A DNA stretch of 53,460 bases. Source: a virus (lineage: Duplodnaviria > Caudoviricetes). Made by a program: the position numbers and the translations under genes. How positions within the stretch are numbered: position 1 is the stretch's first letter; each line of letters begins with the position of its first letter. The notes under the pieces are model-generated. The model was given only the letters and a program-made list of their open reading frames with translations. It was not told the DNA's origin and did no database searches. The DNA lies in the IMG/VR virus record IMGVR_UViG_3300001534_000001, positions 1 through 53,460 of that record; one strand, given 5' to 3'. Below, piece after piece: positions 1,456 to 15,101 of this stretch.

Positions 1456-1491
1456 AACTTAATTTTTGATAAATATAAGTAAAAAAAAATA

Positions 1492-4400: not shown

Positions 4401-7400
4401 ACTGCAATTCTATGGCCGCTTTCACCAGGTTGGCTTCAGTATCAGTATCGTTGGTATCCGGCGCAGTATGCCTTTGAGGAATAGTAGTTTTTGCCAGCAT
4501 TTCATTAATACTCTGCTCAAAGTCGCTTGCCTGTGCAGTATCGCCGCCCCTATCAATGATATACTTTACTGCTATTCTAACTGCCTTCTGTGTACTGTTG
4601 GTTGCTTTAACCACGTTCTTCAGTATATCAATTGCCCCGTTCCATACAGCCGGAGGTATTGGTACAAGCAACCCCATCATTTGACCACCAGGTTTAGCCT
4701 TTAGCTTATCCATAGCGTCCAGTATCGGCTTAACGTTGCTTTGGTCTAATATTTCATCAATGGCAGGAAGCCGCTCATTTTCGCTTTTTTCTTTTTCAAC
4801 CCCTTCTTCAATCATTAACCCTTTTAAAGTTTCAGACCGTACTTCAAGTTCTTTTAAATGGGTATCGTCGAATTTTTGATCAATATCATGACCAAGTTGC
4901 TCGATATTATTTGTGTTTTGGGATATAAGCGCTTTTGTCTTACCAGGCTTTTCAATAACATCTTCCAATTTTGAACGTAGTGACGATAACAAGCCAACAC
5001 CCTTACCACTCGGAACGGCTATACCTTTGCCTGTATAATAAGGATCTTTTATTCCGAGATCCAGTATGGTATATTCAAGTACCGAACCGCCTAATCCCTC
5101 ATGTAATGACAGTTGAACAGGGACACCGTTTATCTTTATTTCACCAGTGGAATATTTGGTAGGACTTTCCTCATACTTTTTATTCAGCCGGTCTAAATAA
5201 CCATCAACAGCAGCAGGGAACTTTTCGGTAGCTTCCGGCTGGCCACTAACCTCTACTTTCAATATTTCTCCATCAGGGAATGATTTTTCTACTTTGGCTG
5301 CATTAAACTCGTCCTTATTTAAAGCGGCTTTATTGCGGTTCAAATTAGACTGCGCTGATTGTAAGTCGCGTTTCGCCTGGATAACCCTGCCAAAGAAAAT
5401 ATCCTTTTTAGTTTTTTCTCTTTTTATGTTAGCGTCTGTTTTTATTTTTTCAATGGCATATTTGCTCCCGGATAGCCTGGCCATCATTTCATCAAAGGTC
5501 GGCACATCTTCGCCGGCCGCATCATCAATAACGCGCTCAACTGTCCCGGTAGTCATAAGTTGCTTGATGAACTTCTCTTTATTCATCAGAACATTATATG
5601 CCATCGCATCTGCGGTGCCTTCCATGCCGTTGTTTGAAACCTCAACTATTTTATTTTCATTACCAGGCCTTAAAATACGTCCCTCCCTCTGAACCATATC
5701 CGAAGGACGGTTGGGAACGTCAAGATGATGTTCGGCGACTAAGTGTTTTTGAGCATTTACACCTACTCCCATTTTTTCGGTACTCCCAAACACTACACGT
5801 ACCAACCCCTCGTTTACCGCTTCAAACAATGCTTGTTTACGTTCCTGTTTATCATATTTAGGGTCGGTAGCAATAGCTATCTCATTTTCAGGAATCCCGG
5901 CAGCGATTAACTTCTTCTTCATATCCTCAAAAAGATGAAACTGTTTTTTACCGTATGCCGGATTTAAAAACTCCTCATTTTCATCAAGATATTGCCGTTC
6001 GCCTGTCATGCTATTTTGACGATCTGAAAATATCATCTGCGTACCTTTAATAGCTTTGGTATCTGCGTGTTTCTTTACAATTACCTTAATAAGATTATTA
6101 ACCTTACTGTCGGGATGGTCCTGCGCCTCCGGGTTGTACATACGCGGATCAATACTGGCAACCTTAGCGTGCCCATAAAGCACCACCGGGATACTTCTGT
6201 TCCGGCCTAACCGTTTTTCTTGCGAAGATAGATTGCCCCAGGCTTTTAATTGCCTTACGATGCTATCTAAAATTTCCTTTACTGGCGGTGTAAGCGGGAT
6301 TATGTTTTTAGTCTTCTCGCCGTTTAACAATTTAGGAACAGAACCACTGTCGGTTATTTCCTTAACATCATCTTTTAAAACCACATGAGCAATCGACCTG
6401 AAGGCGGTCAATAGTTCAGGAGCATTCTTAAAGCTACGGAACCTGTTTACGTTTTTAAAAGAACCGGTAGCATTAAATTCAATATCATTTGCTATAACGC
6501 CAAATGTATTTACAAACTGGTCAAAATGCGTTATGCCTAATCGCTCAACTAATTCCGGCCTGATAAACCGCATCCATGTCCATACTTCGGCCATGGTATT
6601 GGTGATCGGGGTACCGGTGAAGAAGTTTACATTTTTACCGCCTGTCTTTTCCTGAATATGCCGGGTTTTAAGATAAAGCGATTGAGCCCTCTTTGATGCT
6701 GTCTGGTCAATTCCCTTTATGTTTTGTAGCGAAGTGGTTAGGCCAAGTTTTTTGTAGGCATGGCAATTTGATACTAAGATGCCAGCGGCGAAGTAATTAT
6801 GGTTGTCGGCAACTGTAAGGTCATAAACTCGGTCACTTGGCGAATTACTAAATCCAAATCCTGCGTCACTTGCTCGTTCGTAAACCTCAATACCTTCCAC
6901 CCTAACGCATTCAAAATTTCCGTTTTCCGCCTGTCCAAAAACTTCCATTTCTTCAACCTGTGTGTTTTCCCGTCTACCTCTATAGCTATCATCAGATCGG
7001 GCATACCAATATCCACCTTGTAATGATTTGGCAACGATGGGAATTGTCCCCATACAGGCCTCGTCGCTATCCCCCACTCCATATTGTCCTCCGGCAATCC
7101 CAATGCTTTGCATAGGGTAATTTGCTGCGGGGTTAAAGTCCCATTGCCTCCCCTTGACAAAAATGTTTTCCCCTGCATACTGGCTTTCATTTTTGCTACA
7201 GATTTCGGGTTGCTCATTGGATTGTTTAATTTCATTCTGGCTGACGAACTTGGACTTGGTATCCCCAAAGACTTTTTCCCCAACCAAATTCCGTGAAGTC
7301 TCTTTTGCTCTTGAATATGTGGCAAACTGTTCCGATACTTCGCTGCACAATGTCCCGAACAAAATCTTTTCGACCGTACTTTTACTGGATTTATTTTGCA

Positions 7401-10400
7401 CCATTCGCATATCGGCATTGGATTCAGATTTCTCCCTGTTGGATTGTCCTGTGTGACTTGGGTTGCTTTGTATAGAGACGCACATCTCGTGCTGCAAAAT
7501 ACATACTTCTCCTTTTTGACCGGGACTTTCTGACACCACCTGCAAAGTGGTAAATATAATTCTGTCGTTATTGGTGAGGTCTTTTGCTCGGATGTATCCA
7601 TTTTCGGTTAATATATGGTGGTTGGACGTACATACAAAAGTACCGTATTTATGCCTCACTTTCAACATTTTATTTACAATTGGTTTCCTCAGCCAATTGG
7701 TTATTCTTTTTGTCTCATACGTCCCCGATAATACATTATAGCTTAATACTTGCAAGTCTAATTTTTGCTCAACTATCAGCCCTATTGGTAACCAACCTTT
7801 GGTTGTTAAGACCGGGGTTTCGTAAGGGAAACACTCGTCTAAGATTAAGTTATCAATCCCCATGTCCTCAAAATGCAAGGCCGACCTATCAGTATGACGA
7901 TTTAGCAACCTTTCCATTTTAGCTTCTGTACTCAAAGCCTTTTTAGCCTCATTCTTTACATTTTTACCCTTCTTTTCAATATACTCACCCTTTGCGTTCA
8001 TTTTAAGCGCATCCGGATCATCCACCAGGCGCATCTCGTGATCAAGGTCACGTAGCTTGCTTTCGATAGCTTTTTTATCGGCGCCATTATCAGCCTCGTC
8101 GATGGATTTTTGAAGATTATCTATTTTTTCCTGAATATATGCCTTGCGCCGCTCCGGCTTATCAGGGATCATATCAAATTGAGAATGCGGCATGATGATA
8201 GCATCCCAATCCTGCGTAGAAATTTTCGCATAAAGTTTAGCCCTGTTCTCTGCGGAGAAATCTGCTTCGGATGGCGCCAGTATTTTAGCCGTAGGATACA
8301 TTCTGCGGAAACTGGTAACATATTGCCCCAGCGTTGCTTTCTGTACCACCACCATCGTCTTTTTAGCCAATCCAAGCCTTTTAGCTTCCATGGCCAGGAT
8401 GTGCTGCACGAAGCTCTTACCGAAGCCAACCTCTTGCGCTCCGAGCGTACTTTCAGCAAGCCCCCTGGCTACTGATCTCTTTTGCTCATCGTATAAACTG
8501 ATTGTTTTAGACTGCCCCGGATAATAATCAATATTAGGTGTCTGCCAATTTCGCTCAACAAAATTGTTGTAGATTTTATTATATATCGGTTCGGTAATAT
8601 CCTGTGCCTCTTTATTTGACCGCATGAAAGTCACAAACTCATCCTCGATCTGCGCTTGCCTTTCCCTTGCTTCTTCAGTTGCATGAGCATCAATACCACC
8701 GCCGTCTGCTTTTGGCATACTAACGGTTGTCTGAATGTTATTTAAAGCGTTTTCTAACAGCCGTACACCATCAACACCACCACCTGCATAGGTGGTTCTA
8801 TTCCTTGAATCATGCAGGCCATAACTTGAAGCAATATCCCATTTAGCAAGGGCCTCTTTATATTTTATTGTTGAATCAACTCCTAAAAGTGATTTAACAA
8901 AATCTTCATAAATAGCAGGGGGAACCCAGGTTGAACCAAGTGAATATTGAATAAGTGATGCTGGTATATCTTTTGGAATAACTTTTTCAAGTTCAGCTAC
9001 GTTCCTATTAAACTTTTCATCAGTTTCAACAGCCGCTTTAGCCTGATCCAGTTTGTCACGCACATAGCCAGACAAGTATTCTTCCGGGCTTTCCAATAAA
9101 CCTGTATTCGGATTTTCAAAGGCAAGGTTTTCGTTTATTAACGTATTTTTAACATCAGCTACCGGCTGACCTAACAGTTTTGAAATATAATTCAGGTCAA
9201 GGCCGTTTCTGTAATTAAATGAAATATTTATAGCATCCTTAATATTTTCTGCTGCATCCGGTTCGGTACGGGGAAAGTTTATCCGCTTTTTAAATAATGC
9301 TGATTTTTTTATTTCGGTAACTTTTTTACCACCTCCCTTACCATCATCTACAAATTTATCCTTTGCTTCCTCTAACGATTGAACCAAAGGATAGTCAACG
9401 TCATCTTCAAGAAACTTTATTGCCCTATTTTTATGCAGGGCTTTATTCTTTTCAACAAAAGCATCGTATTCTTTATTTAATTCTTTTCGGAGGGCCTCAA
9501 TATTAGCTTCTGCATTTACCGGAGATAATTCCTGCTTGATCAATTCAAGCAACGTGGTTTTAAGTGCGATATATGCTTTGGCTATTTTTACCTCGGCAGG
9601 CTTTTCATTATACTTAGCTACTCCCTCACCATCCCTCACCATATAAATCTTACCGCCCTTTTCAAACATGCTGCCCTCTTTTTTGTCAATGGCCTCTACA
9701 GTTTCCTCAACAGGCTTTTCAACCTGTGCTGATTGTTCCTGCTGCATAATATCAGATGGGAAAGACTTGATAGCTTTATTTAAGTTTGAGATAACGTTGT
9801 ACCCCGATGGCGCATGTAACGTGGCATCCTTACCTCCATATAAGCCGCCTGATCCAGCTTCATCGGCTGTCATCATCTTACCAAGCATATTTTCAGGATG
9901 CTGATGATAATATTCATTTACATTTATAGGTACCTGGTTGCCCTCTTTATCAAAATGCTTTTCTTCTATTGGATAGGTGTACCTAAACTCATTCTCCAGT
10001 GGATTAATTTTATTATTATCCCGTTTACGGAATACTACAATATCAGTCGTAACCTGTGTGCCTGCGTTCTCTGAAAATGCGTTATTTGGTAGCCTCACAG
10101 CCCCCACAAGCACGCTATTGCCACCGTCCGGGCTTGACATCCATTCGCGGAATTTTGGGTCGCCATCAAGCGTGCTTTTCGATGTGATAACCATTGCAAC
10201 ACCGCCAGGCTTTAACAACCGCATACTTTTACCGATAAAGTAATTGTGCATGTTGAATTTGGAGATGTCAGGATAGTTTTTATCGAATGGCGCTTTCTGT
10301 GCAAATGGCACATTACCGATAACAAGGTCCTGGCTATTGGGCTGCACGTTTGATTTTTCAAAACCTGACACGGTTATCTTAGCTTCCGGGTAAAGTTTTT

Positions 10401-13400
10401 TAAGCATACGCCCGGTGATACTGTCGAGCTCATAGCCGGTTAGCTTTGTGCTGTCACGCAGGTCTTTCGGCATCAGGCCAAAGAAGTTTCCTATACCGGC
10501 AGATGTTTCCAGCGTATTCCCACCTTTAAAGCCCAACTGCTTTGCCAGTTCCCACATTTTATTGATAACCTGGCGTTCGGTATAGTTCGCGTTGATAGTT
10601 GAGTTTTTAGCCGCATTCAATTCATCATTGGTAAACAATGAGCTAACCAATGATTTGCGCACTTCATCTATACCGATTGGATAACCTGAATTATTTAGCT
10701 TATTCTTTATCTCATTGGCAAGTTCGCTGAATGAGGAATAAGAAGGTGCGTTAATGGGCCCGTCTTTTGAAAAGTCCAAAATTTTATTATCCCACCGGTT
10801 AAGGCGCACCACTTCGCGCTTCCCGGCTATGGCCGCATTTACAGCCTGCTCATTGGAGTATTCACCGCCTTTAAGGTATTCAGCCAAGCCCCCCCACCCG
10901 ACAAATTGTGCCAGTACCTTCTTTTCTTCCGGGGATGGGTTACGGTCTTCACTTTCCAGTTTTTTAAGCAGGAAAATGGCATCCATGTTTTTGTTGAACT
11001 TTTCAATAGGGGAGCCTTCACCTATTTCATCATCCTGCCGGATATAGTGATTTTGATCTTCAGGCTTTAAACTACGCTTTTCAGTATTTTTTGGTACTCC
11101 TGATCCGGCATTTTTGGAACGTCCTCCCTGTCTGTCAGGTCCACTTCCGGTGCCAGCAGGGCTTCCGTTATCATCGCTTCCACCTGGTCGTACTTCAGGG
11201 ACGGTTTGTTTTCCATGATCTGCATTTCCATTTTCACCGCTGTTGTTGTCAGGTCGTCCAGGTACTTCTTCAGTTTGTTTTCCTGGTACAGCATTTGCAG
11301 CCTTTCCGGGTAATTGTCCCGCAGGAATTGAAGGTGTATTTCCTTCCACTCGCTGTCGTTCATTGTCTGTTCCATTTTCTTTCTTGGTTATATAATCCTC
11401 AAATTTTGCTTTACGTACTTCTTTGAGGTTGGTCATGGCCTCTATTTCTTCATCGGTAGCATCTGCGCTGGTGGCAAATGCTCCGTATGCGGCTTTTAAT
11501 CCATCAAAAACTTCGCCAGCTTTTTCACCGAGATCTTCGTACAGGTCTTTAACTATCTCTCCAAAGTCGTGTATGCCTATTTTAGCGTAGATGGCCAGTA
11601 GTTTGATACCTTTCTCAATGGTTTCTGGATTAATGCCGGACATGGCCTTATTGAAGGTGTCCATAAAGGCTTTCTTTGCCTTTTTAAGCTCATCTTCGTA
11701 TTGGGCACGCTTGGACTGCTTTTCGGACTTCGGTTCTTCTTTTGGCTGCTCCGGTTCAGGAGCCTTTTCATCGGTAGTTTTAAAATCATCCTCGCGTGGC
11801 TGTAATCCAACCGTTACGCCTTGCCGGGTCGGGATGATATTTACTTTTTCCTGACTGAATATGCCATTACCCTCATCTTTAGCGCGAACACCATGCTCAT
11901 TTTCGTACAAATCCTTTCCTGCGGCATTTGTACCGACATGGGTATAAGGTGTGCGGTCTTTACCAAGCGTAATAACAGAGGGCGATTCTTTTGATGGTTG
12001 CGGTAACCCGGCATTAGCCAGTTCTTTGTCAACTTCATCAATAGATGCGTCTATTTCATTAATGACCCCTGCTGACTTGGCACTTCCTCTTGTTGTAGCC
12101 TTTGCTTTTCCAACTGTAACTGTCGCTTTAGCGATAACAGCTTCAGTATTTTCGGTATCGGTGTTTTCACCTTCGGGTTTGATTGTTCCTCGTGGGGATT
12201 TAAGGCCAGATTCATAAGATTGATCTATTTTTGCCTGCAACTCTGCTGGCGTTAGTTTTGATAAATTACGTTTATATGCTTCAATAGCATCTTCTTTGGT
12301 TTTTCCTTTTCCTAAAGATAGTCCGGTAGAACCCTCTGTGACACCATATCCGTCAGTACCATGAAGTTTATGAGTAAAAACATCTAATTTATAGTTGTTT
12401 TTTAAATTCAATGGTTCACCCTCTACCTGAACATATTCAGGTTTTTCGGCAGTCCCCATGGAAACATAGTACGGATTTTCGGCTACTTTTTGGTCATTAC
12501 CTTGTACTTGCCCGGCTTCATTTTTGGCTGCACTTTCTCCGGCAGGGACTTCTGATCGGTTTTCGCTGCCCAATCCTTCGCCCATGGCTGATGATTCGCG
12601 AATGCCCACTTTTCCTGTGCTTTGCTCTGAAATGGCATTTGTTGGTTCCTCCTTATTTGTTAATGTATAAAAATATTCTTTAGCCCTGAACGGAACTTTC
12701 CAACCGCTTTCCCTGGCATCAAGCTGTAATTGTCCGTTCTTATCAATTTGCCTAATCGTAGCAATATCTTGGCCTGTTTGACTTTTTGCAGTGATTAATG
12801 CAATATTGTTCCCGTCTTTATCAACATGCTGATCAAATATTTTAGCTGTCCCCTTTTTTATTGGCTCTATCGATTGATCGGGAGATAAAAATTTATTAAC
12901 ATCAGTTGTTTCGGTTTCTGCAACTACCGGCTTATTTTCAACAGTTTTATTAACTGGCGCAATAGCTTTTCCCGCGCCTGCTGTTTCATCTGCCGGTTGT
13001 TGAGCAGATATCTCCGTATTTGTTTTGGCTTGTTCATTTTTAGGTATAGTTGCTTTGATTATTCTATCAGGATTAGCGGCCACAACCTCGTCCAGCTTTT
13101 CAGCGTTGGTTTGGGCTGGTGCCTGCTGCTGTTTAAACGCATCCAGTTCATTATCCAGGTCATCAAGCTGTGAAGCATCAACCGCTGGTGATGCAGCTAC
13201 AGGCGCAGGTGGATTAGGCTGTACTGATTCAGCAGGCGCAGCTATTTGAGCGGCTCGTTTCTTTTCCTGTTCTTTCTCGTAATCTTCAAGATCAGCCCTG
13301 TCCTTTGTTATCTCAATCGGTTCCTCGCCGTTCTGCTGCTTCCAAAACTTACCTTCCTTCTCAAAATAACGGAATGACTTATCTGTAGCCAATTCGGTCA

Positions 13401-14838
13401 ATTGATCATTAGCCTGCTCAATCTTAGCCGTTACCAGGTTCTTTAAACCCTCTACCTTTGGCTGCATTGCCGGATCAATACCTGATTCATTATTTGCAAT
13501 ACCTTCCTGTACACCTTCCAATTGCCGCCTACCCAATATCAAGCTAACTGCGGCATTGAATTTATTTGGCTGCAAACCCTTTGGTATTGAATTAACCACA
13601 TCTGCGATTTCATCGACCTTTCCTTGTGTGTGTAAAATATCAGTAGCGCTCCATCCTTTTTGTTTCCCAATATTACCTAACTGAACTTTTATTGCCTGAA
13701 CTGTTTGTGGTGAACCATCCTTTTGCAAAACATCTACCACCGGATTAAGATATGGCGACTTATCGTACAGCATACCATCCGTAGAGGCCGCGTGTAGCAA
13801 TGAAAACCCAGCGGCAGGGGTATTTATCATATTTAAGGCAAATTGCCCTAATGAGCCGTTAGCTGGTGTGCTGTCATTGTAAACTGGTGAGGAAATATCC
13901 TTTACAATTTCATCACCGGTAACACCTGGAAAAGGTGCCTTATTATTTAAAGCATTAACACCTGCCTTTAAAGCACTCCTGGCAAGATTAGCCCCGGCGA
14001 AGTCAAGCGCAATATTAGGATATGCTTTTAAATATCCCAAACCAACCTGTCCAAACTTTTGAGAAAAGGATAATGTTTTGGCAAGGGCCTGCTGGCTGTA
14101 ATATTGTGAAATATCATCAGCCGTAGCATTTGCCGGTAAATCAGCAAGTGATCTTGTAGCATCAGCGGCTAATGAAGCGGTAACCTCATTCACAAGCGGC
14201 TGTCCCCCTACTTTACTTAATATTGTGCCGGTTACTGATTTACCTAAAGCGTAGCTGATAAGGCCGCTCCCATAAATCATCAACCTGTCTGTGCCATTAT
14301 CAAACTTAACTCCCTGTGCTTTTAGGTTATCAACGGTTCTTGACATATTGCCAACGGCCTGTAACCCCATGATCTTTGCGCCCTGTGATTCACCCCCCAA
14401 TAGCATGGGTATCATTTTACCTACAGATGCGGCAGAACTATTATTTATAAAATCCTGATTATATCCAAGGTTAGCGCCTTGGTCATACTTTGCCAAAGCA
14501 TCCATTTCGCCCTGCTGTATGTTTTGTTCATGGCCCGGATCAATAAAGCCAGCCTTAACACCCAAATCACCAATATCTGAATGTACTTGTTTTAATGCGT
14601 GTAACCCTTCACCAACGGCGTTCAATACACCAGCGTCAAACGGAATAACAACGTTTCTTACATGATCTGAAAAAGAGGGCTCACCTGCGGCAACCCTATC
14701 CGGCTTTTGTTGCGGGATATTGCCTACATTCTTATCTGCGTTTAGAATATTATTAGCATTTGGATCATAGATAGGAATTAACCCTGATTTAGCATCCGAC
14801 TCTGATTGCTGTTTGGTGTAAACAGGAGGGGACGGCAT
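1492..14838 (-). CDS. Giant polyvalent virion cargo protein with DarB-like N6-adenine DNA methyltransferase and SNF2-type helicase; intein-containing
   Basis: 4448 aa. Pre-methylase motif NMDAIFLLKKLESEDRNPSPEEKKVLAQFVGWGGL; SAM-binding LETSAGIGNFFG; motif IV IGNVPF; Walker A-like QEVGFGKS; Walker B ILDE^CH split by an intein; TGTPITN; helicase C motifs GSTEKMGVGVNAQ and QREGRILRPGN. Follows ejection-protein-like genes. Confidence 0.85.
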   Translation of the reverse strand: MPSPPVYTKQQSESDAKSGLIPIYDPNANNILNADKNVGNIPQQKPDRVAAGEPSFSDHVRNVVIPFDAGVLNAVGEGLHALKQVHSDIGDLGVKAGFIDPGHEQNIQQGEMDALAKYDQGANLGYNQDFINNSSAASVGKMIPMLLGGESQGAKIMGLQAVGNMSRTVDNLKAQGVKFDNGTDRLMIYGSGLISYALGKSVTGTILSKVGGQPLVNEVTASLAADATRSLADLPANATADDISQYYSQQALAKTLSFSQKFGQVGLGYLKAYPNIALDFAGANLARSALKAGVNALNNKAPFPGVTGDEIVKDISSPVYNDSTPANGSLGQFALNMINTPAAGFSLLHAASTDGMLYDKSPYLNPVVDVLQKDGSPQTVQAIKVQLGNIGKQKGWSATDILHTQGKVDEIADVVNSIPKGLQPNKFNAAVSLILGRRQLEGVQEGIANNESGIDPAMQPKVEGLKNLVTAKIEQANDQLTELATDKSFRYFEKEGKFWKQQNGEEPIEITKDRADLEDYEKEQEKKRAAQIAAPAESVQPNPPAPVAASPAVDASQLDDLDNELDAFKQQQAPAQTNAEKLDEVVAANPDRIIKATIPKNEQAKTNTEISAQQPADETAGAGKAIAPVNKTVENKPVVAETETTDVNKFLSPDQSIEPIKKGTAKIFDQHVDKDGNNIALITAKSQTGQDIATIRQIDKNGQLQLDARESGWKVPFRAKEYFYTLTNKEEPTNAISEQSTGKVGIRESSAMGEGLGSENRSEVPAGESAAKNEAGQVQGNDQKVAENPYYVSMGTAEKPEYVQVEGEPLNLKNNYKLDVFTHKLHGTDGYGVTEGSTGLSLGKGKTKEDAIEAYKRNLSKLTPAELQAKIDQSYESGLKSPRGTIKPEGENTDTENTEAVIAKATVTVGKAKATTRGSAKSAGVINEIDASIDEVDKELANAGLPQPSKESPSVITLGKDRTPYTHVGTNAAGKDLYENEHGVRAKDEGNGIFSQEKVNIIPTRQGVTVGLQPREDDFKTTDEKAPEPEQPKEEPKSEKQSKRAQYEDELKKAKKAFMDTFNKAMSGINPETIEKGIKLLAIYAKIGIHDFGEIVKDLYEDLGEKAGEVFDGLKAAYGAFATSADATDEEIEAMTNLKEVRKAKFEDYITKKENGTDNERQRVEGNTPSIPAGQLPGKAANAVPGKQTEEVPGRPDNNSGENGNADHGKQTVPEVRPGGSDDNGSPAGTGSGPDRQGGRSKNAGSGVPKNTEKRSLKPEDQNHYIRQDDEIGEGSPIEKFNKNMDAIFLLKKLESEDRNPSPEEKKVLAQFVGWGGLAEYLKGGEYSNEQAVNAAIAGKREVVRLNRWDNKILDFSKDGPINAPSYSSFSELANEIKNKLNNSGYPIGIDEVRKSLVSSLFTNDELNAAKNSTINANYTERQVINKMWELAKQLGFKGGNTLETSAGIGNFFGLMPKDLRDSTKLTGYELDSITGRMLKKLYPEAKITVSGFEKSNVQPNSQDLVIGNVPFAQKAPFDKNYPDISKFNMHNYFIGKSMRLLKPGGVAMVITSKSTLDGDPKFREWMSSPDGGNSVLVGAVRLPNNAFSENAGTQVTTDIVVFRKRDNNKINPLENEFRYTYPIEEKHFDKEGNQVPINVNEYYHQHPENMLGKMMTADEAGSGGLYGGKDATLHAPSGYNVISNLNKAIKSFPSDIMQQEQSAQVEKPVEETVEAIDKKEGSMFEKGGKIYMVRDGEGVAKYNEKPAEVKIAKAYIALKTTLLELIKQELSPVNAEANIEALRKELNKEYDAFVEKNKALHKNRAIKFLEDDVDYPLVQSLEEAKDKFVDDGKGGGKKVTEIKKSALFKKRINFPRTEPDAAENIKDAINISFNYRNGLDLNYISKLLGQPVADVKNTLINENLAFENPNTGLLESPEEYLSGYVRDKLDQAKAAVETDEKFNRNVAELEKVIPKDIPASLIQYSLGSTWVPPAIYEDFVKSLLGVDSTIKYKEALAKWDIASSYGLHDSRNRTTYAGGGVDGVRLLENALNNIQTTVSMPKADGGGIDAHATEEARERQAQIEDEFVTFMRSNKEAQDITEPIYNKIYNNFVERNWQTPNIDYYPGQSKTISLYDEQKRSVARGLAESTLGAQEVGFGKSFVQHILAMEAKRLGLAKKTMVVVQKATLGQYVTSFRRMYPTAKILAPSEADFSAENRAKLYAKISTQDWDAIIMPHSQFDMIPDKPERRKAYIQEKIDNLQKSIDEADNGADKKAIESKLRDLDHEMRLVDDPDALKMNAKGEYIEKKGKNVKNEAKKALSTEAKMERLLNRHTDRSALHFEDMGIDNLILDECFPYETPVLTTKGWLPIGLIVEQKLDLQVLSYNVLSGTYETKRITNWLRKPIVNKMLKVRHKYGTFVCTSNHHILTENGYIRAKDLTNNDRIIFTTLQVVSESPGQKGEVCILQHEMCVSIQSNPSHTGQSNREKSESNADMRMVQNKSSKSTVEKILFGTLCSEVSEQFATYSRAKETSRNLVGEKVFGDTKSKFVSQNEIKQSNEQPEICSKNESQYAGENIFVKGRQWDFNPAANYPMQSIGIAGGQYGVGDSDEACMGTIPIVAKSLQGGYWYARSDDSYRGRRENTQVEEMEVFGQAENGNFECVRVEGIEVYERASDAGFGFSNSPSDRVYDLTVADNHNYFAAGILVSNCHAYKKLGLTTSLQNIKGIDQTASKRAQSLYLKTRHIQEKTGGKNVNFFTGTPITNTMAEVWTWMRFIRPELVERLGITHFDQFVNTFGVIANDIEFNATGSFKNVNRFRSFKNAPELLTAFRSIAHVVLKDDVKEITDSGSVPKLLNGEKTKNIIPLTPPVKEILDSIVRQLKAWGNLSSQEKRLGRNRSIPVVLYGHAKVASIDPRMYNPEAQDHPDSKVNNLIKVIVKKHADTKAIKGTQMIFSDRQNSMTGERQYLDENEEFLNPAYGKKQFHLFEDMKKKLIAAGIPENEIAIATDPKYDKQERKQALFEAVNEGLVRVVFGSTEKMGVGVNAQKHLVAEHHLDVPNRPSDMVQREGRILRPGNENKIVEVSNNGMEGTADAMAYNVLMNKEKFIKQLMTTGTVERVIDDAAGEDVPTFDEMMARLSGSKYAIEKIKTDANIKREKTKKDIFFGRVIQAKRDLQSAQSNLNRNKAALNKDEFNAAKVEKSFPDGEILKVEVSGQPEATEKFPAAVDGYLDRLNKKYEESPTKYSTGEIKINGVPVQLSLHEGLGGSVLEYTILDLGIKDPYYTGKGIAVPSGKGVGLLSSLRSKLEDVIEKPGKTKALISQNTNNIEQLGHDIDQKFDDTHLKELEVRSETLKGLMIEEGVEKEKSENERLPAIDEILDQSNVKPILDAMDKLKAKPGGQMMGLLVPIPPAVWNGAIDILKNVVKATNSTQKAVRIAVKYIIDRGGDTAQASDFEQSINEMLAKTTIPQRHTAPDTNDTDTEANLVKAAIELQSKIKASSPDEKTFAKLPLIGLSKKQLHKYIEVAAVMAADPDGVLSSDLSGAIPPPKPPVTPPVTTGGEDGEPNRRIPKKEKIPMELIDAPESESPDEPDGVKKNYSLWGKLKDVHVRNLEQLKFYGKDMTDMTAFRAMLHFAASKSEANVNIKLSNDKINKLIGEDGYKVLREALMESRLRGTRERWQNFARDIRAMDDTELSDLFDAGKSSAVYSIIKDLEGYDDDENPAQSILALLDNQEYDDARDYLGQMFDNAADNVSFFGKLSNGKTFDEMTQPDGTGNLSFVNPKYQESLQQYKQLIEKPFRESHVTNEGIFSDALGPLDTYYPLSPVGKDAHKVVMPAKTKYNEPANINNHFTKGSADLYSSEISALAKKLSASFKTNNKAAAIRALYDAGLVAHVSGDSSDKYISINGVTYEATKVPVADARTIITNNQIIHTPTRYVLVPNWLYQEIKPIIEGDISDHDHYTAFGHILNATVNFMLGGPAEAVGHSYRLLSGIINSMPYMQEWAYQNGILGHAAGLVLNNPIVKIFGAMGKVLFTSPSSDEFAQDVQQMAAMGLIPEKTWTHTYSHEFAKSMGVEPTQFPLPWKDLLAGNFKKVFNKGKFLDFSPLLYGKNGIDLKARVTMFRLVRAMNPNATPEQYVKMLADMGQYTSSLQGKLEKFIKENGIAPFATFSRAYYRAGLKNLLMMTQMPIDNPFSKGGGGFDDPGKAGKFIYYKLAQIMTGGILGLIGYWMLIHKEVTGKWPSDDPHAKLLKVPIPEEWKKDAFIKKFYYNKRTNSWDDFSIGFTNIVADRGLKAVGAYKGYETAKLGGNIGQVIESSEIQAVNTYLSQYTASPLVSIPFTGTTGDAPYLSRIHNFRGQVEPSFLRKSKTAPAGLQMPENLAQGLFGINPMFEMANPISGSLDDDYNQKDYESGRFLKSILNIAAPQLMSPHGNDAKKAKSIKANANAIETTIKKEHENK
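6766..7833 (-). mobile_element. Intein (356 aa) inserted in the helicase DExH motif
   Basis: Starts CFPYETPVLT (block A); block B CTSNHHILT; ends VYDLTVADNHNYFAAGILVSN followed by extein Cys. Removal restores LILDE-CHAYK. Penultimate residue is Ser, not His. Confidence 0.92.
6774..7601 (-). CDS. Out-of-frame endonuclease nested in the intein: two CxxC/FCSxxC Zn motifs plus DUF559/Vsr-like PD-(D/E)xK domain
   Basis: 275 aa in the +1 frame relative to the host ORF. CRWC..FCSTRC, CEWC..FCSGHC, then YKVDIGMPDLMIAIEVDGKTH...ILNALGWKVLRFTNEQV. Confidence 0.85.
   Translation of the reverse strand: MDTSEQKTSPITTELYLPLCRWCQKVPVKKEKYVFCSTRCASLYKATQVTQDNPTGRNLNPMPICEWCKINPVKVRSKRFCSGHCAAKYRNSLPHIQEQKRLHGIWLGKKSLGIPSPSSSARMKLNNPMSNPKSVAKMKASMQGKTFLSRGGNGTLTPQQITLCKALGLPEDNMEWGIATRPVWGQFPSLPNHYKVDIGMPDLMIAIEVDGKTHRLKKWKFLDRRKTEILNALGWKVLRFTNEQVTQDLDLVIRQVTEFMTLQLPTTIITSPLAS
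11067..11375 (-). CDS. Overprinted (+1 frame) TnpV-like small protein inside the giant gene
   Basis: 102 aa. WKEIHLQFLRDNYPERLQMLYQENKLKKYLDDLTTTA resembles the TnpV pattern (W...HL.YL.E..P..Y..L...G.L..YL). The host frame here is low-complexity G/P/N/R-rich. A-rich sequence precedes the ATG. Confidence 0.65.
   Translation of the reverse strand: MEQTMNDSEWKEIHLQFLRDNYPERLQMLYQENKLKKYLDDLTTTAVKMEMQIMENKPSLKYDQVEAMITEALLAPEVDLTDREDVPKMPDQEYQKILKSVV
12483..12638 (-). CDS. Overprinted (+1 frame) 51-aa basic peptide MPFQSKAQEKWAFANHQPWAKDWAAKTDQKSLPEKV...
   Basis: Manual translation. TAAGGAGG (complement of 12648-12655) lies 9 nt before the ATG. Resembles short phage proteins beginning MPFKSKAQ (my recognition, unverified). 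Confidence 0.65.
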   Translation of the reverse strand: MPFQSKAQEKWAFANHQPWAKDWAAKTDQKSLPEKVQPKMKPGKYKVMTKK

Positions 14839-14891
14839 CTGTAATGCCGATGGCGTTGAAAGCCCTGGTATTGTTAAGTTTCTTTGTGTAG

Positions 14892-15101
14892 CTAATTCAC
14901 CAGTTTCGGGCTGAAAAGGTTGAGAAACCTTGTTAGAAGGCGATGAAGTAACGACTTTTTTTTTTGAGGCGTACTACCACCGAATAGATCAATACTATTA
15001 TCTGTAGAAGCGACAACGGGTTTGACCTGATGTGTCTGGATATAATTATCTAACTCATCATCGATACTGGTTTGTCCATCTTCTACGTGTGCCTTTGACA
15101 T
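14892..15101 (-). CDS. Short ORF, probable N-terminus of the giant protein through a -1 frameshift
   Basis: ATG 15101 directly follows the upstream stop (TAA T ATG). Contains CAA AAA AAA AAG. The -1 frame is open from there to the giant ORF. Confidence 0.7.
   Translation of the reverse strand: MSKAHVEDGQTSIDDELDNYIQTHQVKPVVASTDNSIDLFGGSTPQKKKSLLHRLLTRFLNLFSPKLVN
14955..14965 (-). other. Slippery site A10G containing A-AAA-AAG
   Basis: Plus strand shows c followed by ten t. Same heptamer as the dnaX/IS3-type -1 frameshift site. Confidence 0.7.

What the first reader, a model, noticed from the sequence alone, without database searches (positions are those of the whole stretch)
6774..15101. 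One gene acting as a multi-layer expression unit
Seen together: a frameshift entry, an intein and three or four nested ORFs, all in the +1 frame, all starting at AAT-G (host Asn codon) after A-rich sequence and confined to linker or intein regions. Inference: giant polyvalent virion proteins may grow by reading through neighbouring small genes while keeping them translatable, a hidden operon that standard annotation misses. This is my best candidate for an undescribed system here.
Basis: inference. Interest (0 to 1): 0.85.

Follow-up and report, generated by a model that had tools for sequence, protein, structure and literature searches.

The report
Hidden genes inside giant phage gene
A 13-kb phage gene for a giant injected anti-restriction protein also carries three smaller genes in a shifted reading frame, so some of its apparent linkers are the read-through of hidden genes that annotation misses.

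Summary
The 4448-codon ORF (1492-14838, minus strand) is a DarB-like methylase-helicase whose helicase motif II is split by an intein.

Three same-strand +1-frame ORFs inside it have independent support:
- A 275-aa DUF559/Vsr-like homing endonuclease lies inside the intein.
- A 102-aa TnpV-like ORF lies just upstream of the methylase domain.
- A 51-aa phrog_1375 ORF lies in a linker.

Relatives of each recur nested in the +1 frame of other large phage ORFs, including cultured phages where they are unannotated. In close phage pairs, substitutions move from the host's third codon position to the nested ORF's third position. This is clear in all three endonuclease pairs and in 2 of 4 TnpV-like pairs. 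The host frame stays open because nested codons never end in T before AA/AG/GA.

The other five +1 ORFs, the uniform +1 frame and the AAT-G starts are what chance gives. The "frameshift entry" (an A10 run) exists but is untested. Growth of giant proteins by read-through of small genes is plausible, not shown. Out-of-frame intein endonucleases were reported in 2025. My searches found no report of the TnpV-like or phrog_1375 nesting. No expression data were available.

The parts
1492..14838 (-). Giant ORF, 4448 aa: DarB-like / PLxRFG-type methylase-helicase polyvalent protein
   Evidence: ORF list and translation. phrog_10089 'DarB-like antirestriction' E=0, 1336 bits. Pfam Eco57I, SNF2-rel_dom and Helicase_C. 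87 GenBank phage records match its methylase region.
14892..15101 (-). Upstream 69-aa ORF, +1 relative to the giant frame; candidate 'frameshift entry'
   Evidence: No Pfam or PHROG match. No homologue among longer proteins.
14956..14965 (-). A10 homopolymer (T10 on the + strand), the longest run in the window, inside the 69-aa ORF
14839..14973 (-). Open extension of the giant frame upstream of its first ATG (45 codons); it begins 9 nt before the A10 run
12483..12638 (-). Nested +1 ORF, 51 aa, phrog_1375 family (MPFQSKAQ...LPEK); host residues 734-786
   Evidence: phrog_1375 E=5.5e-7. Two homologues at 72% identity. 158 viral loci, of which 80 were fetched. 56 of the 80 are nested in +1.
12648..12654 (-). 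AAGGAGG, 9 nt upstream of the 51-aa ORF's ATG
   Evidence: Upstream sequence. Such motifs are rare before the window's other genes.
11067..11375 (-). Nested +1 ORF, 102 aa, TnpV-like (second in-frame ATG at 11363 aligns with MNLN.W of relatives); host residues 1155-1258
   Evidence: Pfam TnpV E=7.9e-4, below the curated cut-off. 8 hits at E<=1e-3 among 1.84 billion proteins. Profile of 7 of them scores it E=1.6e-23. AlphaFold mean pLDDT 85.4. Same +1 ORF found in 9 of 10 cultured-phage relatives.
9580..10992 (-). N6-adenine methyltransferase region of the giant protein (about residues 1283-1753)
   Evidence: phrog_11801 'DNA methyltransferase' E=3.9e-159. Pfam Eco57I.
7834..7848 (-). Helicase motif II, N-extein side (LILDE)
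6766..7833 (-). Intein, 356 aa in the host frame: Cys1, TSNH block, C-terminal ...ILVSN followed by Cys+1
   Evidence: Pfam Intein_splicing E=5.2e-8, 33.3 bits against a cut-off of 35.8. Alignment with 7 related inteins. Model: residues 1-99 and 305-356 are confident beta structure.
6774..7601 (-). Nested +1 ORF, 275 aa: homing-endonuclease gene with two CxxC..CxxxC motifs and a DUF559/Vsr-like nuclease
   Evidence: Pfam DUF559 E=1e-11, 45.1 bits against a cut-off of 20.6. PDB 3HRL E=0.0012 and 3R3P E=0.29. Reached in 0 of 1000 shuffles. 13 viral loci and 40 GenBank phage records hold relatives.
6825..7025 (-). DUF559 nuclease domain of the nested endonuclease (residues 193-259; IEVDGKTH at 6960-6983)
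6922..7536 (-). Host-frame read-through of the endonuclease gene: a 205-residue stretch modelled at low confidence, inside the intein
   Evidence: pLDDT below 50 for intein residues 100-304. Low-complexity translation.
6877..6906 (-). Dual-coded junction: endonuclease LGWKVLRF (+1 frame) over intein strand VRVEGIEVYE (host frame)
   Evidence: The same overlap appears in all the +1 loci shown.

Best explanation
WHAT IT IS
The 13.3-kb gene encodes a DarB-like giant protein with methyltransferase and SNF2-type helicase modules. In relatives this protein is virion-associated. The same DNA strand also holds three older, independent genes, one base out of register (+1).

THE THREE NESTED GENES
1. 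A Vsr/DUF559-type homing endonuclease lies inside the intein that splits helicase motif II. The intein's two splicing halves are in the host frame. Between them the host frame only reads through the endonuclease gene, giving a roughly 205-residue stretch with no confident predicted structure. Protein splicing then removes that stretch together with the intein. The endonuclease's last conserved motif is dual-coded with the first strand of the intein's C-terminal half.
2. A TnpV-like 102-aa helical protein lies directly upstream of the methylase domain. This arrangement is inherited across DarB-like genes of phages of Proteobacteria and Cyanobacteria.
3. A 51-aa basic phrog_1375 protein lies in an N-terminal linker.

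HOW THE HOST FRAME STAYS OPEN (shown)
The host frame is the nested gene's -1 frame. Every possible host-frame stop there has the form NNT|AA, NNT|AG or NNT|GA. Each can be removed by a synonymous NNT-to-NNC change in the nested gene, and exactly that is seen.

EXPRESSION (inferred)
Each nested gene is translated from the giant gene's mRNA by internal initiation at its own ATG. Shine-Dalgarno motifs precede the ATG in relatives from hosts that use them, and precede the 51-aa ORF here.

FUNCTION (inferred)
The endonuclease drives homing of the intein-endonuclease unit. The roles of the TnpV-like and phrog_1375 proteins are unknown. My best guess is small partners of the injected giant protein or of its packaging.
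For: IDENTITY
- Giant protein: phrog_10089 E=0.
- 275-aa ORF: DUF559 E=1e-11, above Pfam's cut-off.
- 51-aa ORF: phrog_1375 E=5.5e-7.
- 102-aa ORF: 8 hits at E<=1e-3 among 1.84 billion proteins. 2 of the 8 alignment members hit Pfam TnpV, best E=3.1e-11. A profile of 7 of the hits picks this ORF alone among 850 six-frame segments, E=1.6e-23. The fold is confident, mean pLDDT 85.4.

RECURRENCE OF +1 NESTING
- Endonuclease: 9 of 13 viral loci are nested in +1 inside intein-bearing helicase, clamp-loader or terminase ORFs. One more holds a +1 remnant and 3 are in frame. The same holds in Vibrio phages CP-T1 and 1.088.O.
- TnpV-like: a +1 open segment just upstream of the methylase domain in 9 of 10 cultured-phage relatives. 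7 of 9 give weak Pfam TnpV hits. tblastn finds it in 21 records from 12 phages, and no separate feature is listed under any of these matches.
- phrog_1375: 56 of 80 loci are nested in +1.

SELECTION ON THE NESTED FRAME
- Vibrio lentus phage pairs, nested region: substitutions at host codon positions 1/2/3 are 32/3/0, 35/5/1 and 8/2/1. Elsewhere in the host gene they are 74/43/268 and similar (p from 4e-6 to 8e-19).
- In those pairs the endonuclease differs at 4-6 of 260 residues, and the host frame over it at 29-34 of 260.
- SopranoGao against LASTA, TnpV-like region: 9/2/2, against 3/1/37 in the flanks. Nested protein 4 differences, host frame 11.
- PEp14 against Pavtok: p=8e-6.
- phrog_1375 in the 39-sequence group of about-400-aa hosts: the most variable host position is 1 inside the nested region and 3 outside it.

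HOST FRAME KEPT OPEN
- Synonymous shuffles of 10 endonuclease ORFs give a mean of 4.5-22 host-frame stops per ORF; 0 are observed. The probability of zero was 0 of 2000 in 9 loci and 0.0045 in one.
- In-frame relatives carry 29-34 stops in that frame.
- In the window, P(host frame open) is 0 of 3000 for the 275-aa and 102-aa ORFs and 0.027 for the 51-aa ORF.
- NNT:NNC before AA/AG/GA is 0:167 in the endonucleases, 0:102 in relatives' TnpV-like ORFs, and 0:9 and 0:5 in the window's two small ORFs. In six ordinary window genes it is 449:254.

INTEIN AND MOBILITY
- Intein model: splicing halves confident, residues 100-304 below pLDDT 50.
- Exteins are 20-24% diverged while the intein plus endonuclease is 2.7-6.5% diverged.

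VIRION ASSOCIATION
- In a relative, JC1 gp69 was detected by virion proteomics (passages read in PMC9144972).
Against: - No expression or translation data exist for any nested ORF. The sequencing-run tool did not answer in 4 tries.
- The window phage has no close relative in the collections. All selection tests therefore come from relatives of each part, not from this genome.
- The window's TnpV match is below Pfam's cut-off (19.8 against 27 bits). So are all 7 weak hits in relatives.
- The 7 proteins used for the TnpV-like profile were chosen by similarity to the query. They come from contigs of 847-10,505 nt, so their own context (free or nested) is unknown.
- 2 of 4 TnpV-like pairs show no significant switch (p=1 and p=0.16). 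In UAM5 against Gervaise the nested frame has more residue differences (13) than the host frame (9) over the open segment.
- USP_18 (1 of 10 relatives) shows no TnpV-like segment.
- The phrog_1375 loci were found through N-terminal peptide patterns. 40 of the 56 nested loci belong to one host group.
- The window's genes mostly lack Shine-Dalgarno motifs. Initiation signals for the 275-aa and 102-aa ORFs cannot be read from sequence.
- No solved structure resembles the TnpV-like model.
Confidence: 0.8

Rival explanations
1. All nested ORFs are chance products. The +1 frame of an A-rich, purine-loaded gene is poor in stops, and a 4448-codon gene offers many trials.
For: - The +1 frame has 247 stops against 513 in +2.
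- Shuffles give a longest +1 ORF of 98.5 aa on average and 4.5 ORFs of 50 aa or more.
- With the host protein fixed, the +1 frame over the 102-aa and 51-aa regions is open with P=0.50 and 0.34.
- Four of the other +1 ORFs have no family match.
Against: - The 275-aa ORF was reached in 0 of 1000 shuffles.
- All three supported ORFs have homologues.
- The same nesting recurs in many genomes.
- Selection follows the nested frame in close pairs.
- This rival is correct for the remaining short +1 ORFs only.
Confidence: 0.03
2. The nested domains are not separate proteins. They are reached by ribosomal frameshifting or transcriptional slippage from the giant frame. The products would be an N-terminal part of the giant protein ending in the TnpV-like, phrog_1375 or endonuclease domain, alongside the full-length protein, as with dnaX or tail-chaperone G/GT.
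For: - In phage PBC5 the upstream 2100 residues run in frame into the TnpV-like domain, and the methylase-helicase part lies in the -1 frame. The switch falls at the nested ATG.
- phrog_1375 is fused in frame to the start of large ORFs in L017-L019 and L034.
- DUF559 is in frame with the intein in L009-L011.
- An A10 run lies at the entry to the giant gene.
Against: - Homology to phrog_1375 begins at Met1 in all 80 loci, though the loci were found through N-terminal peptide patterns.
- The nested TnpV-like ORFs of SopranoGao and Itty13 start with ATG, 8-9 nt after GAGG/GGAG. In SopranoGao a +1-frame stop lies 3 codons upstream of that ATG.
- Several endonuclease ORFs carry Shine-Dalgarno-like motifs.
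- No slippery run was noted in the 30 nt shown upstream of the three nested starts in the window.
- PBC5 is an old record, and its switch may be a one-base error.
Confidence: 0.12
3. The nested ORFs are relics. Genes once inserted into, or were overrun by, the giant gene, and they are now silent. Only the host frame is under selection.
For: - L012 shows a mini-intein holding a 31-aa +1 remnant of the endonuclease, so decay does occur.
- No expression data exist.
- The UAM5/Gervaise and Bcep22/BcepIL02 pairs show no significant frame switch.
Against: - Full-length open nested frames persist in distant genomes.
- Nested proteins are conserved while the host-frame residues over them vary: 4-6 against 29-34 differences, and 4 against 11.
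- Host third positions are nearly invariant inside the endonuclease gene: 0-1 of 11-41 substitutions.
- The intein-endonuclease unit is far less diverged than its exteins, as expected for active homing.
Confidence: 0.05
4. Assembly or sequencing frameshifts make in-frame domains look out of frame.
For: - The window comes from a metagenome-derived virus record estimated 73% complete.
- Homopolymers are present.
- L002 and PBC5 may hold single-base errors.
Against: - Two compensating errors would be needed per nested gene, and the host frame would then carry stops. Instead it is open across 275, 102 and 51 codons.
- The same geometry is seen in independent isolates sequenced by different groups.
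Confidence: 0.01

Closest known systems
Non-canonical inteins with homing endonucleases in a separate reading frame (Gosselin, Arsenault & Gogarten, bioRxiv 10.1101/2025.01.02.630785; passages read)
   Same: - A contiguous intein whose splicing domain is in the extein frame, while the endonuclease is encoded elsewhere in the same DNA.
- The in-frame middle part has no recognisable structure.
- Annotation misses the endonuclease.
- There are signs of continued transfer between genomes.
   Different: - That survey of actinophages lists antisense LAGLIDADG, antisense VSR-like and a frame-3 endonuclease VII-like type.
- Here the endonuclease is VSR/DUF559-like, on the same strand and in frame +1. 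Its 3' motif is dual-coded with the intein's C-terminal strand.
- It occurs in marine and Vibrio phages and in a DarB-like gene.
- Their supplementary tables could not be seen and may list more types.
Fractured genes: split inteins with a free-standing Vsr-like endonuclease gene between the halves (Dassa et al. 2009, PMC2677866; passages read)
   Same: - The same endonuclease type, on the same strand.
- The same position between the intein halves.
- The 3' end of the endonuclease gene overlaps the start of the C-terminal intein part (6-69 bp there).
- Mostly found in phage.
   Different: - There the N-terminal half ends at a stop, followed by 27-51 non-coding bases, so the host gene is in two pieces joined by trans-splicing.
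- Here the host frame runs through the whole endonuclease gene without a stop, so the host gene stays in one piece.
Embedded spanin gene Rz1 within Rz (the embedded class is mentioned in PMC9144972; that it lies in the +1 frame in lambda is recalled)
   Same: A complete small gene inside a larger one, on the same strand, with its own start.
   Different: - Rz and Rz1 are two functional partners of similar size, and both frames encode structured proteins.
- Here the host-frame product over the nested genes is a low-complexity linker, or an intein stretch with no confident predicted structure.
- Here one host gene carries three unrelated guests.
DarB of phage P1 and the DarB-like / PLxRFG giant proteins (Bcep22 gp75, SopranoGao gp6, JC1 gp69)
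   Same: - Methylase plus helicase modules, giant size, and a position at the end of the virion module.
- Virion-associated in JC1.
   Different: - This one carries an intein in motif II and a phrog_1375 guest, neither found in the 10 relatives scanned.
- Its N-terminal part is unrelated to theirs, which start with a transglycosylase.
TnpV (Pfam PF14198)
   Same: - Length of about 100-120 aa and an all-helical prediction.
- Weak but consistent matches to profile positions of about 20-83.
   Different: - Scores lie below the curated cut-off.
- Those whose context could be read are all nested in the giant genes.
- The function of TnpV itself is unknown to me.

Membership tests
Intein (Hint splicing domain) | Profile match to the intein splicing domain | tested here: inconclusive
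   PF14890 E=5.2e-8 but 33.3 bits against a cut-off of 35.8. Related inteins in L001, L004, L005, L007 and L008 pass the cut-off.
Intein (Hint splicing domain) | Nucleophile at residue 1, TxxH block, C-terminal Asn followed by Cys/Ser/Thr, in-frame insertion in a conserved host motif | tested here: met
   Cys1 (CFPYET), TSNH...ILVSN|C, inserted in helicase motif II LILDE|CHAYKK. The penultimate residue is Ser, not His, as in L001, L003, L004 and L007.
Intein (Hint splicing domain) | Hint fold of the two splicing halves | tested here: met
   AlphaFold model: residues 1-99 and 305-356 are beta-rich with block pLDDT mostly above 80. Residues 100-304 are below 50. The model was not compared with solved Hint structures.
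Intein (Hint splicing domain) | Protein splicing activity | not testable with these tools
   Inferred only, from the need for an intact motif II.
DUF559 / Vsr-like (EDxHD-type) homing endonuclease | Profile match above the curated threshold | tested here: met
   PF04480 E=1e-11, 45.1 bits against 20.6. PDB 3HRL E=0.0012. I-Bth0305I (3R3P) only E=0.29.
DUF559 / Vsr-like (EDxHD-type) homing endonuclease | Association with a mobile intervening sequence and signs of lateral spread | tested here: met
   It lies in inteins of at least five host gene types. In Vibrio lentus phages the intein plus endonuclease is 2.7-6.5% diverged against 20-24% for the exteins. Not testable for the window's own copy.
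DUF559 / Vsr-like (EDxHD-type) homing endonuclease | Site-specific DNA cleavage | not testable with these tools
   None.
DarB-like / PLxRFG giant antirestriction protein | Profile match and a methylase plus SNF2-type helicase architecture | tested here: met
   phrog_10089 E=0. phrog_11801 methyltransferase E=3.9e-159. Pfam Eco57I, SNF2-rel_dom and Helicase_C.
DarB-like / PLxRFG giant antirestriction protein | PLxRFG motif | tested here: not met
   A pattern search for PL.RFG or PL..FG in the protein found nothing. The motif spelling is taken from the family's name only.
DarB-like / PLxRFG giant antirestriction protein | Packaged in the virion and protects DNA from restriction | not testable with these tools
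   Virion association was shown for JC1 gp69 (PMC9144972). Antirestriction activity is known for P1 DarB only (cited there).
TnpV (PF14198) | Profile match above the curated threshold | tested here: not met
   19.8 bits against 27. 7 of 9 relatives score 13.3-21.2 bits. 2 of the 8 members of the wider alignment match, best E=3.1e-11. I call it TnpV-like, not a member.
phrog_1375 | Profile match | tested here: met
   E=5.5e-7 over residues 3-28. PHROGs has no curated cut-off. No Pfam match.
Functional overlapping (embedded) gene | Both frames open beyond chance | tested here: met
Functional overlapping (embedded) gene | Purifying selection on the embedded frame | tested here: met
   Met in relatives: endonuclease 3 of 3 pairs; TnpV-like 2 of 4 pairs significant; phrog_1375 group shows a shift in entropy. 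Could not be tested in the window's own lineage.
Functional overlapping (embedded) gene | Evidence of translation | not testable with these tools
   The sequencing-run tool was unreachable.
Programmed frameshift / transcriptional slippage at the gene's entry | Slippery run with the target frame open from it | tested here: met
   A10 at 14956-14965. The giant frame is open from 14973.
Programmed frameshift / transcriptional slippage at the gene's entry | Downstream stimulatory structure | tested here: not met
   95 nt downstream fold at -12.7 kcal/mol, z=-0.11. Slippage on long A runs does not need one (recalled).
Programmed frameshift / transcriptional slippage at the gene's entry | Conservation in relatives, or a fused product | tested here: inconclusive
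   Relatives have unrelated N-termini. No homologue of the 69-aa ORF was found among proteins of 122-2000 aa.

The most novel reading that the evidence does not exclude
Low-complexity 'linkers' of giant injected phage proteins are often not linkers by origin. They are the -1-frame read-through of complete small genes that are still translated.

Because every stop in that frame (NNT|AA, NNT|AG, NNT|GA) can be removed by a synonymous T-to-C change, any gene can be made transparent to an upstream reading frame at no cost to its own protein. That gives phages a general, cheap route to two outcomes:
(a) fusing neighbouring genes into one polyvalent protein while keeping the small gene, and
(b) tolerating invading genes such as homing endonucleases inside essential genes.

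On this reading the TnpV-like and phrog_1375 proteins are obligate small partners of the giant effectors, and their synthesis is coupled to the giant mRNA.
Probability: 0.35. Interest if true: 0.85.

Novelty: new variant of a known kind. Interest (0 to 1): 0.78.

Why it matters
- **Hidden genes in sequenced phages.** Three protein-coding genes lie under a single annotated CDS, and not only in this metagenomic phage. The TnpV-like ORF lies under an annotated giant CDS in 21 GenBank records of 12 cultured phages. The endonuclease lies under 'helicase' CDSs in 40 records (two checked for frame, both +1). No separate feature is listed in the rows I saw.
- **A simple rule for dual coding.** NNT is never followed by AA, AG or GA. 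This explains why such nesting is always +1. It can be turned into a scan for further hidden genes.
- **A third state for inteins.** The case adds a state between in-frame intein endonucleases and split-intein 'fractured genes'. That bears on how split inteins arise.
- **An unnoticed partner for DarB-like proteins.** These proteins take up about a fifth of their genomes and are poorly understood. A conserved embedded partner is a concrete handle on how they work.
- **Testable now.** All of this can be tested in cultured phage-host pairs.

Tried and rejected
- DNA similarity of 6000-8500 to GenBank phages: no match.
- Relatives of the 102-aa ORF: none in viral contigs, none by the word-based protein search, none in GenBank phages by tblastn.
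- The 51-aa ORF in GenBank phages: no match at E<=1e-3.
- Alignment A2 was too diverse for a pattern scan (error).
- Metagenome scan with P0007, meant to read the context of a TnpV-like homologue: 3 loci, all a chance peptide match inside an unrelated 691-743-aa ORF.
- Cluster look-up gave contig lengths only and no context.
- tblastn of the giant protein against all fetched loci: only the intein region matched. The hosts of the phrog_1375 ORF are therefore not detectably related to this protein.
- Pfam and PHROGs on those hosts: mostly nothing. Exceptions were L035 His_Phos_1 and the L045 C-terminus, which is DarB-like.
- Other +1 ORFs (11577-11789, 11841-12038, 12051-12215, 8169-8459) and the 69-aa ORF: no Pfam or PHROG match. 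Ten antisense ORFs inside the giant gene: no Pfam match. I treat all of these as chance.
- TTAACC-like motif as a start signal: 4 of 28 minus-strand copies lie within 40 nt upstream of the 32 listed gene starts, and one lies 10 nt before the endonuclease ATG. Too weak to use.
- Fold search of the TnpV-like model against the PDB: no match at E<=0.001.
- RNA fold downstream of the A10 run: unremarkable.
- Profiles for phrog_1375 and for the endonuclease found nothing at E<0.01 in the 10 DarB-like relatives.
- Plasmid search with the SopranoGao nested ORF: one record, again under a PLxRFG CDS.
- The look-up of sequencing runs did not answer in 4 tries.
- Literature searches for a prior report of genes nested in DarB-like or polyvalent proteins found none in the listings or in the passages read.

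Full report
ANATOMY

The window is a phage fragment. It encodes a terminase large subunit, a DnaB-type helicase and virion proteins, nearly all on the minus strand. The record is a virus contig estimated 73% complete.

The finding's span is dominated by one ORF, 1492-14838 (-), of 4448 aa. It is a DarB-like antirestriction-type giant protein:
- phrog_10089 matches at E=0 (1336 bits) and a methyltransferase PHROG at E=3.9e-159.
- Pfam finds Eco57I-type methylase, SNF2 and Helicase_C pieces.
- Its methylase region matches 87 GenBank phage records, including Bcep22, SopranoGao, PEp14 and PBC5.

Helicase motif II is split by a 356-residue intein, LILDE|CFPYE...ILVSN|CHAYKK (window 6766-7833).

All same-strand ORFs of 40 aa or more inside the gene lie at offset +1.
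- 6774-7601 (275 aa), inside the intein;
- 11067-11375 (102 aa), in a Gly/Asn/Pro/Glu-rich stretch just before the methylase domain;
- 12483-12638 (51 aa), in another low-complexity stretch, preceded by AAGGAGG.

IS IT MORE THAN CHANCE?

By length, only partly. I made 1000 synonymous-codon shuffles of the giant gene.
- The longest +1 ATG-ORF averages 98.5 aa (maximum 226 aa). There are on average 4.5 ORFs of 50 aa or more, against 8 observed (P=0.053).
- The 275-aa ORF was never reached. The 102-aa ORF is ordinary by length.
- The +1 frame has 247 stops against 513 in +2, which explains why everything is in +1.
- AAT-G is one of four possible contexts. Relatives of the small ORF use GAT-G and CAT-G too.

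Four further +1 ORFs, the 69-aa upstream ORF and ten antisense ORFs gave no family match. I take them as chance. The case for the other three rests on homology and comparative evidence.

THE ENDONUCLEASE IN THE INTEIN

Identity. The 275-aa ORF matches Pfam DUF559 above threshold (E=1e-11). It also matches a solved DUF559 protein (3HRL, E=0.0012) and, weakly, the homing endonuclease I-Bth0305I (3R3P, E=0.29).

Recurrence. A scan of viral contigs found 13 loci with relatives.
- In 9 of them the relative lies in frame +1 of a far larger open frame. In one of these, L002, the host frame stops 5 nt after the endonuclease stop.
- One locus holds a short +1 remnant, and in 3 the domain is in frame.
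- The large ORFs are intein-bearing SNF2 and ResIII helicases, a clamp loader, a terminase and MuF-type proteins.
- 40 GenBank phage records also hold a relative. In Vibrio phages CP-T1 (gp10 'putative helicase') and 1.088.O, the two records I checked for frame, it is again +1 of the annotated CDS and not annotated itself.

The host frame is kept open by selection.
- Synonymous shuffles of 10 such endonuclease ORFs give a mean of 4.5-22 host-frame stops per ORF; none is observed.
- Zero stops occurred in 0 of 2000 shuffles in 9 loci, and with probability 0.0045 in the G+C-rich one.
- The in-frame relatives have 29-34 stops in that frame.

The endonuclease frame is under purifying selection. 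In three pairs of Vibrio lentus phages, substitutions in the nested region fall at host codon positions 1/2/3 as 32/3/0, 35/5/1 and 8/2/1. In the rest of the gene they fall as 74/43/268 and the like (p from 4e-6 to 8e-19). The endonuclease differs at 4-6 of 260 residues, and the host-frame translation of the same DNA at 29-34.

The unit is mobile. Exteins are 20-24% diverged, while the intein plus endonuclease is 2.7-6.5% diverged.

The intein is a mini-intein with a stretch of no confident structure. A model of the window's intein in the host frame has confident beta structure for residues 1-99 and 305-356. Residues 100-304 are below pLDDT 50.

A dual-coded junction is conserved. The endonuclease's last conserved motif (LGWKVLRF) is dual-coded with the first strand of the intein's C-terminal half (VRVEGIEVYE, 6877-6906). 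The same overlap appears in every +1 locus shown. This argues that the composite element has a single origin and has moved between genes. All insertion sites are at or next to Walker B / motif II 'DE'.

THE TnpV-LIKE ORF

Homology.
- Close-relative searches failed. An exhaustive HMMER search of 1.84 billion proteins gave 8 hits at E<=1e-3. Seven of these are 95-124 aa long and align over most of their length.
- 2 of the 8 alignment members match Pfam TnpV (best E=3.1e-11). The window ORF itself stays below the cut-off (19.8 against 27 bits).
- A profile of the seven picks out this ORF alone among 850 six-frame segments of the window (E=1.6e-23). There is some circularity, because the seven were chosen by similarity to it, and they come from short contigs whose context is unknown.
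- The ORF folds confidently as a helical protein (mean pLDDT 85.4 with 8 sequences), with no solved look-alike.

Comparative evidence, which carries the most weight.
- In 9 of 10 DarB-like genes of cultured phages, the profile finds an open +1 segment immediately upstream of the methylase domain (E from 1.5e-7 to 0.033). The phages are Itty13, SopranoGao, LASTA, PBC5, Atu_ph08, UAM5, Bcep22, PEp14 and Mwe-JY07. USP_18 has none.
- 7 of 9 give weak Pfam TnpV matches, all below the cut-off.
- tblastn with the SopranoGao copy finds it in 21 records of 12 phages at 48-63% identity between genera. Each match lies under an annotated giant CDS, with no separate feature.
- In SopranoGao and Itty13 the ORF starts MNLN.W, 8-9 nt after GAGG/GGAG.

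Selection tests on four close pairs gave a mixed result.
- SopranoGao against LASTA: 37 of 41 flank substitutions are at host position 3. In the nested 330 nt, 9 of 13 are at host position 1 (the nested third position). There are 4 nested against 11 host-frame residue changes.
- PEp14 against Pavtok also differs from its flanks (p=8e-6).
- Bcep22 against BcepIL02 and UAM5 against Gervaise do not (p=1 and 0.16), though their nested regions are 2-3 times less diverged than the rest.
- In UAM5 against Gervaise the nested frame is not the better conserved one (13 against 9 changes).

THE phrog_1375 ORF

- The 51-aa ORF matches phrog_1375 (E=5.5e-7) and has two homologues at 72% identity. The Atlas listed viral clusters of 48-54 aa at a score of 0.95, which is a lead only.
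- A viral-contig scan found 158 loci, of which 80 were kept. The match starts at Met1 in all 80, though the scan used N-terminal peptide patterns.
- 56 of the 80 are nested in +1 in a larger open frame. 40 of these lie in one group of acidic ORFs of about 400 aa. Most of the rest lie in giant ORFs of 1371-2450 aa.
- The other 24 are free-standing, directly behind a large ORF, or fused in frame as the N-terminus of an 883- or 1344-aa ORF.
- These hosts are not detectably related to the window's protein. One has a DarB-like C-terminus.
- Variation peaks at the small ORF's third position whether it is nested (entropies 0.46/0.47/0.70) or free (0.93/0.88/1.47). In the 39-sequence host group the most variable host position is 1 inside the nested region (0.375/0.153/0.298) and 3 outside it (0.48/0.31/0.83).

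HOW THE TWO FRAMES COEXIST

The host frame is the guest's -1 frame. Its only possible stops are NNT|AA, NNT|AG and NNT|GA. In the standard code NNT to NNC is always synonymous. The counts of NNT:NNC before AA/AG/GA are:
- endonuclease ORFs, 0:167 (elsewhere 522:227);
- relatives' TnpV-like ORFs, 0:102;
- the window's two small ORFs, 0:9 and 0:5;
- six ordinary window genes, 449:254.

With the guest protein fixed and codons drawn from the phage's usage, the host frame would be open in 0 of 3000 trials for the 275-aa and 102-aa ORFs, and in 2.7% of trials for the 51-aa ORF. This explains why such nesting is always +1.

THE 'FRAMESHIFT ENTRY'

The sequence features are there. A 69-aa ORF starts 1 nt after the preceding gene's stop. 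It holds an A10 run, the longest homopolymer in the window. The giant frame is open from 9 nt before that run to its first ATG, 45 codons later. One extra A in the mRNA, or a -1 slip, would fuse about 46 residues to the giant protein.

Nothing further supports it:
- there is no downstream structure (z=-0.11);
- no homologue of the ORF was found;
- relatives have unrelated N-termini;
- reads could not be examined.

An assembly miscount of the run is equally possible. I put the fused reading at roughly one in three.

MECHANISM, ORIGIN AND RIVALS

Shown:
- three guests with homologues;
- recurrent +1 nesting;
- guest-frame selection in relatives, clear for the endonuclease and mixed for the TnpV-like ORF;
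- host-frame openness maintained at the guests' synonymous sites.

Inferred:
- internal initiation of the guests;
- splicing that removes the read-through stretch;
- homing by the endonuclease.

Origin. For the endonuclease, invasion of a mini-intein fits best, as in the model of Dassa et al. but without breaking the gene. The varied states of phrog_1375 fit a fusion series but do not order it. So does PBC5, where the frame switches exactly at the nested ATG, so that the upstream 2100 residues end in the TnpV-like domain. PBC5 may also be a one-base error.

The rivals (chance, relics, sequencing error, frameshift-fused products) are weighed in their own sections. Only the frameshift-fused reading keeps appreciable weight.

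NOVELTY

- Embedded genes in phages are classical (Rz1 in Rz).
- Inteins whose endonuclease is in another frame or strand were reported in a 2025 preprint on actinophages: antisense LAGLIDADG, antisense VSR-like and frame-3 endonuclease VII-like (passages read). VSR-like endonucleases free-standing between split-intein halves were reported in 2009 (passages read).
- The same-strand +1 VSR/DUF559 type with a dual-coded junction is a further variant. It is widespread outside actinophages.
- For genes nested in DarB-like or polyvalent proteins I found no report in six full-text searches or in the JC1 paper's passages.
Subscription journals are not covered.

LIMITS

- There are no expression data.
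- The window phage has no close relative.
- The functions of two guests are unknown.
- The scans of viral contigs were seeded by exact peptide patterns.
- Counts of loci include close relatives.

Noticed in passing
L099 (Sinorhizobium phage PBC5) about 11125-11128: Homology to the Atu_ph08 giant protein changes frame exactly at the ATG of the TnpV-like ORF. As a result orf33 ends in an in-frame TnpV-like domain, and orf23 (methylase-helicase) lies in the -1 frame. This is either a natural split state or a one-base error in an old record.
   Followed up: partly
L097 (Pseudomonas phage Itty13) 6625-18960: A 4112-codon open frame homologous to the giant gene carries no annotation. The record instead lists three CDS on the opposite strand across it.
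   Followed up: no
L002 10650-10668: In a near-copy of L001 the host frame stops 5 nt after the endonuclease stop and continues in another frame. This is either a 'fractured' (split-intein-like) state or an assembly indel.
   Followed up: no
L012 4241-4363: A mini-intein in a ResIII helicase keeps only a 31-aa +1 remnant of the endonuclease, while the dual-coded strand (IRVESIEIQK) is retained. This looks like a decayed stage of the same element.
   Followed up: partly
L001, L004, L005 host ORFs: The same host proteins carry a second intein with a LAGLIDADG domain, upstream of the one that holds the +1 endonuclease.
   Followed up: no
window 6766-7833 and loci L001-L008, L095, L096: These related inteins nearly all sit at or next to the Walker B / motif II 'DE' of different P-loop NTPases (helicases, clamp loader, terminase). 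This fits jumps between genes through a shared nucleotide-binding motif.
   Followed up: partly
window 6774-7601 and relatives: The endonuclease N-termini carry a variable number (about 2 to 5) of CxxC...CxxxC zinc-finger-like repeats. These could set target specificity.
   Followed up: no
window 29209-30369 (-): A transposase gene (phrog_506, E=1.6e-106) lies inside the phage's gene array.
   Followed up: no
window 1481-1489: An A9 run on the + strand (T9 on the gene's strand) lies directly after the giant gene's stop codon.
   Followed up: no
L011 4382-7072: A MuF-type phage protein has an in-frame DUF559 intein and a C-terminal ADP-ribosyltransferase domain. It is an example of the in-frame state of the same endonuclease within another polyvalent protein.
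   Followed up: no
window, upstream of several genes (e.g. 978, 24150, 29219, 34262) and 7611: A TTAACC motif lies 6-23 nt upstream of four gene starts and 10 nt upstream of the endonuclease ATG. The enrichment is mild and its meaning unknown.
   Followed up: partly
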